Source: Escherichia coli (GTDB lineage: Bacteria; Pseudomonadota; Gammaproteobacteria; Enterobacterales; Enterobacteriaceae). From it: a stretch of 64,000 nt of DNA. Where the stretch lies: assembly GCF_003334765.1 (NCBI RefSeq), contig NZ_QOWT01000012.1; one strand, given 5' to 3'. The notes under the pieces are model-generated. The model searched no databases. It was not told where the DNA came from and was given only the letters and a program-made list of their open reading frames with translations. Within the stretch, counting starts at the first letter, position 1. Each line of letters opens with the position of its first letter. Of this stretch, positions 10,631 through 13,090 are shown piece by piece. Made by a program: the position numbers and the translations under genes.

Positions 10631-10729
10631 CCTGATGCGCTTCGCTTATCAGGCCTACATAAGGCATTGCAACTGATTGAATGCTTGAGAATTTGTAGGC
10701 CGGATAAGGCGTTTACGCCGCATCCGGCA
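10631..10729. repeat. BIME: two inverted REP elements
   Basis: gcctgatgcgcttcgcttatcaggcctaca (10631..10660) and tgtaggccggataaggcgtttacgccgcatccggca (10694..10729); typical enterobacterial REP palindromes. Confidence 0.85.
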
Positions 10730-10797
10730 TGACCAACGATCACGTTATCAGTCATTTCAGGCTGGATGGCTCCAGCCTCGCATTAGCAAAGATGAGA

Positions 10798-11667
10798 TTA
10801 TTTCGCCTGTGGTGCAGTTTTGCTGGTGGATTGAACACGTAAGTGATGCAGCGCGCGTAAGCATTGATCCTGGGTTAGCGGTTGGGCGTTATTCGCCGCT
10901 ACGGTGCGAACATAGACCTGACATGGCACACCCGCGAGTTTTTTCAGTCGTGGGCTGAAATCAAGCATTCGGCGAGTGATCGCTTCTATTTCTTTACCCG
11001 GCGTTGCTTCACGCGTTTTCACCACTGCGCCGCTAAATTGTTCTTTGCCACTTTCATCTTTAAAGCGGTAAAGCACCGCCAGATAATGGTCGAACAAGTT
11101 ATGTTTCCATTCCGGTTGGGAATAGGTGTCATATTCCAGATTGCCATTGTCCTGGCAGTCAACGTCGTATAACGGCAGGAAATCTAACAGTGAGGTAATA
11201 CGTAATGCCAGTTCACGCATTTCCGCATTATTAATTGCATGAATGATTGCTCGCGCCAGCATTTCAATCTGCAACTCATTGACGACTAACTCACATTTGC
11301 TACCGTCATGTAGCGTTAATACGAAGGTAAGATTTTCGCCTTGATTATCGGTAAGTTCCAGCGTGTTAACCCGACGATTAATATCGGCATTTTTAAGCTC
11401 ATCAACCAGAATTTCTGGGATGTTTTCTGCCATTTTCTTAATGACTTTATCGCGAGCTTGCTCATACTGAAGGTGTGCAGCAGCATCCAGTTTATGCTTT
11501 TGATGCAGACGACTTTCCAGCGCAATCAGCAGGTCGCGCAGTTCCATGACAGACATAAAGAACAACGATTCTTTATTGCGAGGTTCTTTAATTTTCAGCG
11601 CCAGTGCAATGAAATTATTACTCTTGCGAATAACACCGGTATTAACACCCTTGATGCTTATGGCCAT
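10798..11667 (-). CDS. yjeJ: uncharacterised protein YjeJ
   Basis: 289-aa ORF, no recognisable catalytic motif; AT-rich gene with very AT-rich upstream region (11668..11880). Confidence 0.7.
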   Translation of the reverse strand: MAISIKGVNTGVIRKSNNFIALALKIKEPRNKESLFFMSVMELRDLLIALESRLHQKHKLDAAAHLQYEQARDKVIKKMAENIPEILVDELKNADINRRVNTLELTDNQGENLTFVLTLHDGSKCELVVNELQIEMLARAIIHAINNAEMRELALRITSLLDFLPLYDVDCQDNGNLEYDTYSQPEWKHNLFDHYLAVLYRFKDESGKEQFSGAVVKTREATPGKEIEAITRRMLDFSPRLKKLAGVPCQVYVRTVAANNAQPLTQDQCLRALHHLRVQSTSKTAPQAK

Positions 11668-11930
11668 GTAGGTTCTCCCTAACCATTTCTCAATTAAATA
11701 ATTAATTTTAATTTATAAGCCAGATAAATGGGCTTGGTAGTAATAGTTGTTAAAATAACATAAATAGCCGTACTCACTCTATATAAACAGAAAAGAAAGG
11801 TTAATTATTGGTGTTAGCTATATAAAAAGTAACAACAGCAATGCATATGAATAATTAAAGGTTATGCAACGGGCAAAGATTAAACTTCCCAGTTTAATGA
11901 CAGGTTGCTGTACTTGCGTTTGTTGCTCTT

Positions 11931-12029
11931 GCCGGATGCAGCGTAAACGCCTTATCCGGCCTACAGTTCATTGCAAATCCATTCAATTTCAATGCACGAT
12001 GTAGGCCTGATAAGCGTAGCGAATCAGGC
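11931..12029. repeat. BIME: two inverted REP elements
   Basis: gccggatgcagcgtaaacgccttatccggcctaca and tgtaggcctgataagcgtagcgaatcaggca in inverted orientation. Confidence 0.85.
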
Positions 12030-12061
12030 AATTTTAATGTTTAACTTCCCTGTTTAATCAG

Positions 12062-13090
12062 TTACTGCTGGCGTAGCTGGAGATCCAGCGGCGTTTTGCT
12101 GGGTTCGCCGCCAATTTCTCGCGCCAGTTTCGGCACCAGATATCCCGACACCAGTGTCAGCAACTCACGCATAATCTGCCGTGCTTCGTCATCACTCACC
12201 ATAAAATGCGCCGCGCCCTGTACTTTATCGAGCACATGCAGGTAATACGGCATTACGCCGGCATCGAACAACGCATTACTCAGGTTTGCCAGCGTTTGTG
12301 CGTTATCGTTCACATCACGTAACAGAACGCTCTGGTTCAGCAAAGTAACGCCTACCCGGCGCAACTTAGCCATCGCCTGACGGAATGTTTCATCTACCTC
12401 ATTGGCATGGTTGATGTGATTCACCAGCAAGATTTGCAGCGTAGAACGGGCAAAGCATTCAACCAGCGCCTCGGTGATACGTGCCGGGATCACAATCGGC
12501 AGACGGCTGTGAATCCGCAGACGTTTTATATGCGGGATGGCTTCCAGTTGTGTGAGCAACCAGTCCAGCTCGTGATCTTTCGCCATCAGCGGATCGCCGC
12601 CGGAGAAAATCATCTCGTCCAGTTCCGGATGCGCAGCAACATACTCAAGTGCAGTTTGCCAGTTACGCTTGTTGCCCTGATTTTCGGCATAGGGGAAGTG
12701 ACGACGGAAGCAATAGCGGCAATTTACCGCGCAGCCGCCTTTGACCAGCAAAAGCGCCCGGTTGTGGTATTTATGCAACAAACCAGGCACTACGCTGTGC
12801 TGTTCTTCCAGTGGGTCGGTGGAGAATCCGGGCGCGATGACAAACTCATCTTGCGAGGTAAGTACCTGACGCAAAAGAGGATCGTCCGGATTGCCTTTCT
12901 CCATGCGATCGATAAATGAGCGGGGCACACGCAGGGCAAAAAGCTTTTTGGCGCTGCGTCCGGCTAACAGTTTTTCCTCCGCGTCTATATTCAAAAGACG
13001 CAGAAGTTCATCAGGATCGGTCACAACATCGGCAAGTTGCGTTAACCAATCTTCTCTGGATGGGGTATTTAGGGTTACAATATGCGCCAT
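12062..13090 (-). CDS. epmB: EF-P beta-lysylation enzyme, lysine 2,3-aminomutase-like radical SAM protein
   Basis: 342 aa with CxxxCxxC radical-SAM motif (CAVNCRYCFRR); divergent from efp. Confidence 0.9.
   Translation of the reverse strand: MAHIVTLNTPSREDWLTQLADVVTDPDELLRLLNIDAEEKLLAGRSAKKLFALRVPRSFIDRMEKGNPDDPLLRQVLTSQDEFVIAPGFSTDPLEEQHSVVPGLLHKYHNRALLLVKGGCAVNCRYCFRRHFPYAENQGNKRNWQTALEYVAAHPELDEMIFSGGDPLMAKDHELDWLLTQLEAIPHIKRLRIHSRLPIVIPARITEALVECFARSTLQILLVNHINHANEVDETFRQAMAKLRRVGVTLLNQSVLLRDVNDNAQTLANLSNALFDAGVMPYYLHVLDKVQGAAHFMVSDDEARQIMRELLTLVSGYLVPKLAREIGGEPSKTPLDLQLRQQ

What the first reader, a model, noticed from the sequence alone, without database searches (positions are those of the whole stretch)
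10631..12062. AT-rich orphan gene yjeJ bracketed by two BIMEs, one with an 18-bp flanking direct repeat
yjeJ (289 aa, no recognisable motif) and its roughly 250-bp upstream region are much more AT-rich than the neighbouring core genes, and REP pairs sit on both sides (10631..10729 and 11931..12029). The right-hand BIME is flanked by an imperfect 18-bp direct repeat, aacttcccagtttaatga (11883..11900) and aacttccctgtttaatca (12043..12060), 16 of 18 identical, resembling a target-site-duplication footprint. Together this suggests yjeJ is an anciently acquired, possibly H-NS-silenced gene and that the BIME arrived by insertion.
Basis: seen in the sequence. Interest (0 to 1): 0.45.

Follow-up and report, generated by a model that had tools for sequence, protein, structure and literature searches.

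The report
Two removable BIME-1 repeats flanking yjeJ
The uncharacterised E. coli gene yjeJ is flanked by two copies of a common 145-bp genomic repeat (BIME-1), each bracketed by a duplicated piece of its insertion site and each missing cleanly from about 40% of E. coli strains; yjeJ itself is an old, expressed, conserved enterobacterial gene rather than silenced foreign DNA.

Summary
yjeJ has 45.2% GC and its 263-bp upstream spacer 30.8%. Together they form the most AT-rich kilobase of the 64-kb window. REP pairs lie at 10630-10729 and 11931-12029, and the 16/18 direct repeat is at the stated coordinates.

Both REP pairs are BIME-1 units (z1 REP, 35-36-nt linker, y REP, conserved outer motifs) in inverted orientation.

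The repeat behaves like a target duplication. About 40% of 5,426 complete E. coli genomes lack exactly 160 bp and keep one repeat copy, as does E. albertii. Every deeper Escherichia lineage sampled has the BIME. It was therefore inserted after the E. albertii split and later lost precisely, probably twice, within E. coli.

The left BIME shows the same pattern, with a 7-10-bp repeat and a 153-bp difference. Both targets are short palindromes.

A third BIME-1 (cueO-gcd) is also polymorphic but has no flanking repeat. The duplication is therefore not a fixed transposase signature.

The "anciently acquired, H-NS-silenced" reading is not supported. yjeJ keeps its position across Enterobacteriaceae and has dN/dS of about 0.05. 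Its codon usage is typical, it has a sigma-70 promoter not flagged for H-NS, and its protein is detectable.

This is a known kind of element with a modestly informative junction.

The parts
10798..11667 (-). yjeJ coding sequence (289 aa), Pfam PF15922 YjeJ-like
   Evidence: ORF. Pfam E = 7e-175. dN/dS 0.04-0.06. AlphaFold2 model with pLDDT 93.
11776..11804 (-). Sigma-70 promoter for yjeJ (TTAACC-17-TAGAGT): -35 element at 11799-11804, -10 element at 11776-11781
   Evidence: Listed as a constitutive RpoD promoter for yjeJ in the epmB-yjeJ spacer, without an H-NS mark (PMC3946193). I located the sequence. It is conserved across Escherichia.
11668..11877 (.). AT-rich yjeJ upstream spacer. GC 30.8% was measured over 11668-11930, which also takes in the palindrome copy and the BIME's left outer motif.
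   Evidence: No match to the H-NS high-affinity motif TCGATAAATT within 2 mismatches.
11878..11899 (.). yjeJ-side copy of the target palindrome (GATTAAAC-TTCCCA-GTTTAATg). It contains direct-repeat copy 1 (11883-11900).
   Evidence: The empty allele has this palindrome once, immediately after the epmB stop codon.
11899..12042 (+). Right BIME-1 unit (144 bp): left outer motif 11902-11930, z1 REP 11931-11964, linker 11965-12000, y REP 12001-12029, right outer motif 12030-12042
   Evidence: Absent as a 160-bp block (unit plus one repeat copy) from about 2,180 of 5,426 E. coli genomes and from E. albertii.
12043..12060 (.). Direct-repeat copy 2 (AACTTCCCTGTTTAATCA), directly next to the epmB stop codon (12062-12064). 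It holds 3 nt of arm 1, the loop and arm 2 of the palindrome.
   Evidence: Identical to the single copy in empty alleles.
10606..10615 (.). Outer copy of the left-BIME direct repeat (AGGCTGGgTG in K-12; AGGCTGGATG in E69, E. whittamii and other lineages)
   Evidence: Removed by a 10-bp deletion in O157, O26, ST540 and L37.
10616..10758 (-). Left BIME-1 unit (143 bp), inverted relative to the right one: y REP 10630-10659, linker 10660-10694, z1 REP 10695-10728, outer motifs on both sides
   Evidence: Absent as a 153-bp block in 2020N21-246, M24, AVS0226, EC571, strain 135 and JJ2434. Present in all Escherichia species sampled, including E. albertii.
10759..10778 (.). Target palindrome of the left BIME (AGGCTGGA-TGGC-TCCAGCCT), lying between the convergent genes yjeI and yjeJ. 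Its first 10 nt are the inner repeat copy.
   Evidence: Empty alleles have one palindrome and one repeat copy.
10209..10595 (+). yjeI (DUF4156 lipoprotein; the annotated start gives 117 aa), convergent partner of yjeJ
   Evidence: The pair is conserved even where YjeJ identity is 29%.

Best explanation
The locus is an old enterobacterial gene pair, yjeJ and yjeI, lying downstream of epmB.

yjeJ (shown):
- It is vertically inherited, under purifying selection and expressed.
- Together with its promoter it has drifted to high AT content in the Escherichia and Citrobacter lineages.

The two BIME-1 insertions (shown):
- Two BIME-1 units of 143-144 bp were inserted independently, in opposite orientations, at short palindromes at either end of yjeJ. 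Each unit is a z1 REP, a 35-36-nt linker, a y REP and conserved outer motifs.
- The left unit predates the E. albertii split. The right unit came after that split but before E. coli diverged from the cryptic Escherichia clades.
- Each insertion is bracketed by a duplicated piece of the target palindrome: 16-18 bp on the right and 7-10 bp on the left.

Loss (pattern shown, mechanism inferred):
- The two repeat copies flank a hairpin-forming element, so slipped-strand or short-homology recombination between them removes the unit precisely and restores the single-copy site.
- The right BIME is missing from about 40% of E. coli genomes, with probably two independent losses.
- Up to about 45% of genomes lack an intact left BIME. 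That remainder also includes IS621-interrupted alleles.

Origin of the duplication (inferred):
- Its length varies (+16-18, +7-10, and none at cueO-gcd), and the junctions share 1-3-nt microhomologies.
- This fits a replication template-switch or repair-type insertion better than a transposase with a fixed stagger, or the no-duplication mechanism of IS200/IS605-type (RAYT) enzymes.

What the BIMEs do here (from established knowledge of REP/BIME elements, not tested):
- They form REP hairpins at the 3' ends of the epmB, yjeI and yjeJ transcripts and can bind IHF.
- Their frequent absence shows they are dispensable.
For: Filled and empty alleles at the right site:
- 3,247 of 5,426 genomes hold the full 601-bp query. 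Sampled rows of the rest span 441 bp in two pieces.
- Alignments show exactly one repeat copy, equal to the epmB-side version, in O157 and O26, in four further E. coli strains and in E. albertii.

Polarity:
- K-12 and O157 differ by 0.7% in yjeJ. The filled lineages MOD1-EC7003, E1V33, E69 and E. whittamii differ from K-12 by 4-9%, and the empty E. albertii by 13%.
- In a neighbour-joining tree of yjeJ plus epmB, O157 and O26 (right site empty) are sister to ST540 and L37 (right site filled). The doubly empty M24 group falls in a separate clade.
- A G/T polymorphism 13 nt from the repeat occurs in both filled and empty alleles.
- Orthologous BIME copies diverge in step with the species.

Repeat history: the yjeJ-side copy has T at position 9 in E. 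whittamii and E69, matching the other copy.

Left BIME: a 153-bp difference, a 10-bp perfect repeat (AGGCTGGATG) in E69 and E. whittamii, and one copy in empty alleles. 2,994 of 5,426 genomes are filled.

BIME-1 identity: REP types, 35-36-nt linkers and outer motifs are shared with the cueO-gcd and rnr-rlmB copies.

Variable junctions: the cueO-gcd BIME-1 is absent from about half of the genomes, with TGG in its place and no flanking repeat.

yjeJ: synteny, family spread, dN/dS, codon index, promoter, protein detected, listed as Nac-regulated.
Against: - Only one E. albertii genome and no closer informative outgroup could be read. Citrobacter has an unrelated GC-rich hairpin at the homologous spot. 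E. albertii could therefore also be a secondary loss.
- No chimeric (A..C) empty allele was found in 5,426 genomes. Frequent recurrent slippage within the present-day repeat might be expected to produce one.
- The closest filled relatives of O157 (ST540, L37) have extra changes in the yjeJ-side copy. The O157 loss must predate those changes or have used only a 4-bp homology.
- All left-empty alleles share one flanking haplotype. This suggests a single loss spread by recombination rather than recurrence.
- The local tree rests on 1.9 kb in a recombining species.
- Only two of the four BIME-1 copies inspected have long flanking repeats.
- The target palindromes are weak as RNA hairpins (-9 kcal/mol, z = -0.96).
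- The template-switch origin of the duplication is an inference with no direct test.
Confidence: 0.68

Rival explanations
1. The repeat is a classical target-site duplication made by a transposase that mobilises BIME-1 as a miniature transposon. The enzyme would be either the REP-associated tyrosine transposase (RAYT/TnpA-REP) or a DDE enzyme acting on the outer inverted motifs.
For: The unit has defined ends shared with other copies and an outer inverted motif, TGACAA(A)CG ... CGTTTGTCA. Both units at yjeJ are bracketed by duplications, and their empty sites hold one copy. TnpA-REP cleaves and rejoins REP/BIME single strands in vitro (PMC3333891).
Against: The duplication length is not fixed: 16-18 bp, 7-10 bp, and none at cueO-gcd. 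[quoted passage not shown] A duplication of 16-18 bp is longer than those I know of for bacterial DDE families (own knowledge). The flanks share no common target tetranucleotide.
Confidence: 0.12
2. The two repeat copies were already present before the BIME arrived, for example from an older local duplication of the palindrome or by chance. They only matter because they allow deletion. The BIME inserted between them without duplicating anything.
For: Loss through flanking repeats needs only that the repeats exist. The cueO-gcd copy shows that BIME-1 can be present or absent without any duplication. E. albertii could itself be a deletion product.
Against: Two independent BIME-1 units at one locus both have repeats that end within a few bases of the unit's conserved termini. 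A 16/18 match at this spacing occurs in about 1 of 2,000 controls. No sampled genome has two copies without a BIME.
Confidence: 0.1
3. The BIME-less alleles in E. coli are ancestral, never-filled alleles. They would have been maintained as a long-lived polymorphism or re-imported by recombination, rather than produced by secondary deletion.
For: All empty alleles carry exactly the epmB-side version of the repeat, as a never-filled site would. No chimeric allele was found. Left-empty alleles share a distinct flanking haplotype related to the E1V33 and E. whittamii type. All four filled/empty combinations exist, so recombination is active here.
Against: The flanks of the right-empty alleles are typical E. 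coli: 0.7% from K-12 in yjeJ. They sit within about 30 bp of polymorphisms shared with filled alleles. All deeper lineages sampled are filled on the right, and all, including E. albertii, are filled on the left. A polymorphism persisting across species would have to outlast 9-13% sequence divergence.
Confidence: 0.1
4. yjeJ is a horizontally acquired AT-rich gene kept silent by H-NS, and the flanking BIMEs mark the borders of the acquired segment.
For: yjeJ with its promoter is the most AT-rich kilobase of the window. The family is small and restricted: 97 clusters at 50% identity among 1.84 billion proteins. No function is known. Inverted repeats bracket the gene.
Against: Synteny is conserved across Enterobacteriaceae, and the yjeJ-yjeI pair is conserved. 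The two BIMEs differ in age and are each missing from many strains that keep yjeJ. dN/dS is about 0.05. The codon index equals the window mean. Relatives at 70% and 42% identity have GC within 2-4 points of their neighbours. A sigma-70 promoter is listed without the H-NS SELEX mark. No H-NS motif was found. The protein is detected in wild-type cells.
Confidence: 0.08

Closest known systems
BIME-1 (also called RIP or RIB elements) of E. coli: one z1 REP and one y REP in inverted orientation, separated by the long L linker that often carries an IHF site
   Same: REP types, inverted arrangement, 35-36-nt linker, single unit, extragenic position next to gene 3' ends, and outer flanking motifs shared with other copies. 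The definition is taken from PMC3333891. Presence/absence polymorphism, reported as 'excision of a whole BIME-1' among natural isolates by Bachellier et al. 1997 (Genetics 145:551). I recall that abstract from memory; the paper is not held in the library.
   Different: The linker of the right unit has no IHF consensus within one mismatch, and the left unit has one mismatch. As far as I could check, locus-specific duplications of a target palindrome flanking the unit are not part of the family description.
REPIN/RAYT systems: REP doublets thought to be mobilised in trans by an IS200/IS605-like tyrosine (HUH) transposase
   Same: A REP doublet able to fold into a long hairpin, a dispersed multicopy family, vertical inheritance with occasional gain and loss, and excisions seen in populations (PMC3116915).
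   Different: That mechanism predicts insertion without target duplication (PMC2817692). Two of the three clean presence/absence sites examined here carry duplications of 7-18 bp, and the third carries none. The losses at yjeJ are explained by the flanking repeats and need no transposase.
Precise excision of transposons (Tn10, Tn5) by replication slippage between their target duplications, stimulated by the element's inverted repeats (own knowledge)
   Same: Short direct repeats flank a hairpin-forming insert, and loss restores the original single-copy sequence exactly.
   Different: Here the process is inferred from natural variation and was not measured. The repeats are imperfect (16/18) in present-day K-12.
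Pfam PF15922 (YjeJ-like), and the PUR/Whirly-like beta-beta-beta-beta-alpha repeat fold of Pur-alpha
   Different: Foldseek against the PDB gives no significant hit; human PURA reaches probability 0.77 with E = 0.09. A profile search of PDB sequences finds nothing. Nucleic-acid binding is a lead only.
naRNA4 (Rfam RF02564), a REP-derived nucleoid-associated RNA
   Same: The z1 REPs of both BIMEs give partial matches (40 bits).
   Different: The matches fall below the family's gathering score (59.5). They reflect REP similarity only.

Membership tests
BIME-1 (RIP/RIB) | One z1-type REP and one y-type REP in inverted orientation | tested here: met
   z1 REP (GCCGGATGCGGCGTAAACGCCTTATCCGGCCTAC) at 10695-10728 (minus strand) and 11931-11964 (plus strand). 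Each is paired with GTAGGCCTGATAAGCG.AGCG.ATCAGGC. z2 REPs (GTCGGATG...) were seen only in short-linker BIMEs elsewhere in K-12.
BIME-1 (RIP/RIB) | Long (L) linker between the REPs, present as a single unit rather than a tandem array | tested here: met
   Linkers of 36 and 35 nt, with a single unit at each site. BIME-2-type units found in MG1655 have 12-16-nt linkers.
BIME-1 (RIP/RIB) | IHF consensus in the linker | tested here: inconclusive
   Left unit: CAACTGATTGAAT, one mismatch to YAANNNNTTGATW. Right unit: no match within one mismatch. The cueO-gcd copy matches exactly.
BIME-1 (RIP/RIB) | Conserved sequences outside the REPs shared between copies | tested here: met
   A roughly 30-nt motif (AGATTGCTGACAACGTGCGCGTTGTTCAT-like) lies on the z1 side and a 13-17-nt motif (A.ATT..CGTTTGTCA-like) on the y side. 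They are shared with the cueO-gcd and rnr-rlmB copies.
REPIN mobilised by a RAYT (IS200/IS605-like mechanism) | Insertion without target-site duplication | tested here: not met
   Duplications of 16-18 bp (right) and 7-10 bp (left), with a single copy in empty alleles. The feature is met at cueO-gcd.
REPIN mobilised by a RAYT (IS200/IS605-like mechanism) | A cognate RAYT gene (tnpA-REP) in the genome, shown to mobilise the element | not tested
   The gene is not in the window. Its in-vitro activity on BIME single strands is reported in PMC3333891.
MITE moved by a DDE transposase | Terminal inverted repeats together with a target duplication of fixed length | tested here: not met
   An outer inverted motif exists, but the duplication length varies: 16-18, 7-10 and 0 bp.
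H-NS-silenced horizontally acquired gene | AT content well above the genome average | tested here: met
   Most AT-rich kilobase of the window, 59.9% AT, 3.4 sd above the mean. The coding sequence alone is 54.8% AT.
H-NS-silenced horizontally acquired gene | Patchy distribution or lack of conserved synteny among relatives | tested here: not met
   The order efp-epmB-yjeJ-yjeI holds in Escherichia, in Citrobacter and in a 42%-identical relative from an unidentified organism. The yjeJ-yjeI pair holds at 29% identity.
H-NS-silenced horizontally acquired gene | H-NS occupancy and de-repression in an hns mutant | not testable with these tools
   Only indirect evidence is available. The spacer is not marked as an H-NS site in genomic SELEX (PMC3946193). 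No H-NS motif was found. The protein is detectable in wild-type cells. ChIP supplements were not held or were truncated.
Pfam PF15922 YjeJ-like | Significant full-length match to the family profile | tested here: met
   E = 7.3e-175, residues 1-283 matched to model positions 1-283 of 283.

The most novel reading that the evidence does not exclude
BIME-1 copies may not be installed by transposase cut-and-paste. They could instead be copied in by a replication template-switch (copy-choice) or repair-type event at short palindromes near gene 3' ends. The nascent strand would leave the target, copy a BIME-1 from elsewhere, and re-enter the target at a variable position through 1-3-nt microhomology.

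Re-entry upstream would give a target duplication (+16-18 bp at epmB-yjeJ, +7-10 bp at yjeI-yjeJ). Re-entry downstream would give a small replacement (TGG at cueO-gcd).

The same duplications would then make those copies reversibly excisable. Some BIME-1 sites would flip between filled and empty within a species, while copies without a duplication would be locked in.
Probability: 0.22. Interest if true: 0.6.

Novelty: new member of a known kind. Interest (0 to 1): 0.33.

Why it matters
How REP and BIME elements spread has been an open question since the 1980s. The favoured RAYT model rests on in-vitro cleavage and on excision reads, and very few natural insertion junctions have been described.

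This locus offers two well-resolved filled/empty pairs with a dated order of events. Their junctions carry variable target duplications at palindromes, which the RAYT model does not predict. The locus also suggests a simple reason why some BIME-1 copies are lost cleanly.

For annotation, yjeJ should be treated as a conserved, expressed enterobacterial gene paired with yjeI, not as a silenced foreign gene. For typing, both BIMEs are common indel markers within E. coli.

The result is incremental. BIME-1 polymorphism as such was already reported in 1997.

Tried and rejected
- NCBIfam and PADLOC scans of YjeJ and YjeI found nothing. A profile search of PDB sequences also found nothing.
- Rfam on 10100-12400 gave only sub-threshold REP-related naRNA4 matches.
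- The simple promoter/terminator scan found nothing useful in the spacers and missed the literature promoter.
- A 54-nt artificial chimeric empty junction (A..C) was searched against all 5,426 genomes. There was no exact match. The coverage count was uninformative because the tool joined the two repeat copies of filled genomes into one place.
- I tested whether the right BIME is a copy of the neighbouring left one. The linkers are only about 69% alike in most lineages (my hand comparison of the sequences), and the whole units are 83% alike in K-12. I rejected the idea. In E. whittamii the two linkers are identical, which I read as later gene conversion.
- I asked whether long flanking repeats are general for BIME-1 by scanning 200 kb of MG1655 plus the window. 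Only four clean BIME-1 copies were found, and the cueO-gcd and rnr-rlmB copies have no long repeat. At rnr-rlmB the alternative allele is a single different REP, so that site is uninformative.
- Bachellier et al. 1997 (PMC1207841) is not held. H-NS ChIP supplements were not held or were cut when stored.
- The iScience T6SS paper uses a yjeJ deletion only as a linked marker and says nothing about function.
- The MG1655 RefSeq record in the collection carries no REP features for this locus.
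Full report
**What is there.** The window is the E. coli K-12 groL-yjeI-yjeJ-epmB-efp region. yjeJ is the 289-aa ORF at 10798..11667 on the minus strand. It lies downstream of epmB on the same strand and is convergent with yjeI.

**Checking the composition claim.** GC is 45.2% for yjeJ and 30.8% for the 263 bp between its start codon and the right REP pair. It is 52.7% for epmB, 54.8% for yjeI and 51.9% for the window. Among 61 long ORFs, yjeJ has the third-lowest GC (z = -1.9) and a GC3 of 45.2% (z = -1.8). 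A codon-adaptation index built from the pooled genes of the window is 0.70 for yjeJ, which equals the window mean. The kilobase starting at 11101 is the most AT-rich of all 630 sliding windows. The observation therefore holds. It reflects base composition (GC, GC2 and GC3 are all low); the pooled codon-adaptation index is typical.

**Checking the repeats.** REP pairs lie at 10630-10729 and 11931-12029. They are reverse complements of each other over about 115 bp. Such a match was not reached in 2,000 shuffles of the flanks, and it was reached once in 2,000 real pairs of 60-mers at the same spacing.

**What the REP pairs are.** Each has a z1-type REP (GCCGGATGCGGCGTAAACGCCTTATCCGGCCTAC), a 35-36-nt linker and a y-type REP, and each is a single unit. 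This is the definition of BIME-1 given in PMC3333891. Similarity between the two units extends about 30 nt beyond the z1 REP and 13-17 nt beyond the y REP. The same outer motifs occur in the BIME-1 copies between rnr and rlmB (window 46474-46571) and between cueO and gcd in MG1655. The IHF consensus in the linker is exact at cueO-gcd, has one mismatch in the left unit, and is absent from the right unit.

**The decisive comparison for the right BIME.** Of 5,426 complete E. coli genomes, 3,247 contain the whole 601-bp stretch around the right BIME. The sampled genomes among the rest match in two pieces spanning 441 bp, which is 160 bp less and equals the spacing of the two repeat copies.

Alignments of O157:H7 G5295 and strain 26_141088 show GATTAAACTTCCCTGTTTAATCAGTTACTG. 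This is a single copy, identical to the epmB-side version. Four more E. coli strains and E. albertii show the same single-copy state. That is not observed.

**Polarity.** E. albertii is the outgroup here (13% divergent in yjeJ) and is empty. E. whittamii, E69, E1V33, MOD1-EC7003 and the divergent E. coli strain 2020N21-246 are 4-9% divergent and are all filled. O157 differs from K-12 by only 0.7% in yjeJ and 2.2% in epmB.

In a neighbour-joining tree of yjeJ plus epmB, the right-empty strains O157 and O26 are sister to the filled strains ST540 and L37. These four share a derived 10-bp deletion in the other spacer. The doubly empty group (M24, AVS0226, EC571, strain 135) falls in a separate clade. 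A G/T polymorphism 13 nt from the repeat occurs in both filled and empty alleles. Orthologous BIME copies have diverged roughly in step with the species.

The most economical reading has three steps:
- Insertion after the E. albertii split but before E. coli and the cryptic clades diverged.
- In-situ evolution of the inserted unit.
- At least one, and probably two, precise losses inside E. coli.

In E. whittamii and E69 the yjeJ-side copy still has T at position 9, like the other copy. The repeat was therefore at least 17/18 identical earlier, as expected for a duplication made at insertion.

**The target is a palindrome, and the left BIME repeats the pattern.** In empty alleles the sequence just after the epmB stop codon is the palindrome GATTAAAC-TTCCCT-GTTTAATC. 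As RNA it folds only weakly (-9 kcal/mol, z = -0.96).

In filled alleles the full palindrome lies on the yjeJ side (11878-11899). The 144-bp unit follows at 11899-12042. Then comes a partial copy (3 nt of arm 1, the loop and arm 2) at 12043-12060.

The left BIME has the same anatomy relative to its own orientation. Its target is the palindrome AGGCTGGA-TGGC-TCCAGCCT (10759-10778), which lies between the convergent genes yjeI and yjeJ. The repeat is AGGCTGGATG. It is 10 bp and perfect in E69 and E. whittamii, and K-12 has one change in the outer copy at 10606-10615. Empty alleles are 153 bp shorter and carry one copy.

The left BIME is present in all Escherichia species sampled, including E. 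albertii, so it is the older insertion. It is intact in 2,994 of 5,426 E. coli genomes, and the listed alleles that lack it include the ST131 strain JJ2434. All left-empty alleles share one flanking haplotype, which suggests a single loss spread by recombination. All four filled/empty combinations exist.

**How general is the duplication?** I scanned 200 kb of MG1655 in addition to the window. The cueO-gcd BIME-1 has canonical ends and is absent from about half of E. coli genomes. Its empty allele has TGG in place of about 155 bp, and there is no flanking repeat. At rnr-rlmB the alternative allele carries a single different REP.

The outcomes at the three clean sites are therefore +16-18 bp, +7-10 bp, and a 3-nt replacement. 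At the two yjeJ junctions the unit's ends and the target share 1-3 nt (CAG and AAC on the right, CAT on the left), so the exact borders are ambiguous by that much.

A fixed-stagger DDE transposase does not fit this variation. The IS200/IS605-type chemistry proposed for RAYT-driven REP mobility does not generate larger target duplications (PMC2817692). My preferred explanation is a replication template switch or repair-type capture with a variable re-entry point. This is inference only. The REPIN papers I could search do not discuss target duplications.

**Loss.** The inferred mechanism of loss is slipped-strand or short-homology recombination between the flanking repeats, helped by the hairpin-forming unit. 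This is the process known for precise excision of Tn10 and Tn5 (own knowledge). Two results count against frequent recurrence. No chimeric empty allele exists among the 5,426 genomes. The nearest filled relatives of O157 also have additional changes in the yjeJ-side copy.

**yjeJ itself.**
- It is a full-length member of Pfam PF15922.
- The family is small: 340 hits among 5.8 billion proteins and 97 clusters at 50% identity among 1.84 billion.
- The family nevertheless spans Enterobacteriaceae, including Shigella, Citrobacter, Salmonella, Enterobacter, Klebsiella, Raoultella and Kosakonia.
- The order efp-epmB-yjeJ-yjeI is kept in Citrobacter, in a 70%-identical metagenomic relative and in a 42%-identical relative from an unidentified organism. 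The convergent yjeJ-yjeI pair persists at 29% identity next to unrelated genes.
- dN/dS against six Escherichia lineages is 0.04-0.12, and 0.04-0.06 at the deeper comparisons, as for epmB.
- yjeJ GC is 41.7% in Citrobacter, where its neighbours have 52%. In the 70%- and 42%-identical relatives it is 50-52%, only 2-4 points below the neighbours. The AT-richness is thus a lineage-specific drift rather than a fading foreign signature.
- Genomic SELEX lists a constitutive sigma-70 promoter, TTAACC-17-TAGAGT, for yjeJ in this spacer. I located it at 11776-11804 on the minus strand. The spacer is not among those marked as H-NS sites (PMC3946193).
- The upstream region has no match to the H-NS high-affinity motif within two mismatches.
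- YjeJ protein is quantified in wild-type K-12 grown in LB (PMC9508795). The gene is cited as Nac-regulated (PMC7417836).
- In-vivo H-NS ChIP tables could not be read.

**What the BIMEs probably do here.** From established knowledge of REP and BIME elements, they can fold at mRNA 3' ends, protect against exonucleases or attenuate transcription, and BIME-1 can bind IHF. None of this was tested. The frequent absence of each BIME (about 40% of genomes for the right; up to about 45% lack an intact left one) shows that neither is required.

**Verdict.** The insertion and footprint reading is supported and refined: insertion, then precise loss, with a palindromic target and the same pattern at the left BIME. 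The reading of yjeJ as acquired and H-NS-silenced is not supported. The elements are members of a long-known family, and BIME-1 presence/absence polymorphism was reported in 1997. The variable target duplications are a modest new clue to how these elements are installed.

Noticed in passing
L030 and L031 (strains C7 and KS-NP019), locus positions 1-450; corresponds to window ~10600-10760: An IS621 (IS110-family) transposase gene lies where yjeI and the left BIME are expected, next to the yjeJ 3' end. I did not map the junction. From memory, IS621 is known to target REP sequences.
   Followed up: no
H1 (strain A37); corresponds to window 11600-12200: An IS1B element interrupts the yjeJ-epmB spacer in this strain.
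   Followed up: no
L006 (E. whittamii), both BIMEs; corresponds to window 10660-10694 and 11965-12000: The 36-nt linkers of the two inverted BIMEs are identical in E. whittamii. Paralogue identity there is 94.9%, against 83% in K-12 and 79-85% in three other lineages. This points to gene conversion between the two inverted copies across yjeJ.
   Followed up: partly
window 11668-11870, compared with L003, L005 and L006: The yjeJ promoter spacer is dimorphic. K-12 differs from E. whittamii and strain 2020N21-246 by 23-27% over 200 bp. It differs from E1V33 by only 2.5%, although the E1V33 coding sequence is 7% divergent. This indicates mosaic or recombinant history of the regulatory region.
   Followed up: partly
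window 10603-10612 (O157, O26, ST540, L37) and window ~11876-11901 (L009, MOD1-EC7003): Small deletions have removed one copy of the flanking repeat: 10 bp (CCAGAGGCTG) at the left BIME and 25 bp at the right BIME. Under the slippage model these deletions would lock the BIME in place.
   Followed up: partly
L022:38630-38800 (MG1655 cueO-gcd spacer), L032, L033: This BIME-1 is absent from about half of E. coli genomes. The empty allele has TGG in its place and no flanking repeat. Strain MS 57-2 has an internal tandem duplication of the z1 REP plus the outer motif.
   Followed up: partly
window 46474-46571 (rnr-rlmB spacer), L018: This is a third BIME-1 in the window. About 1,580 genomes carry a single, different REP (GTAGGCCGGGCAAGCGTGGCGCTCCCGGC) at this site instead.
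   Followed up: partly
L016 (29%-identical YjeJ homologue) and L015: yjeJ and the DUF4156 lipoprotein gene yjeI remain convergent neighbours even where the other neighbours differ, for example a C39-peptidase ABC exporter in L016. This suggests a functional link between the two proteins.
   Followed up: partly
L004, L010; AFDB entries A0A077ZBR0 and A0A0C2JF96: E. coli-type yjeJ DNA (99-100% identical) occurs in records labelled Bacillus coahuilensis m4-4 and a Bacteroidales MAG. A 99%-identical YjeJ appears under the nematode Trichuris trichiura, fused to EpmB, and a 27%-identical YjeJ-family protein under the myxozoan Thelohanellus kitauei. These are most likely contamination.
   Followed up: no
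window 47454-47855 and 49300-49698: These two ORFs have lower GC than yjeJ (38.6% and 43.6%). They are the other AT-rich genes of the window.
   Followed up: no
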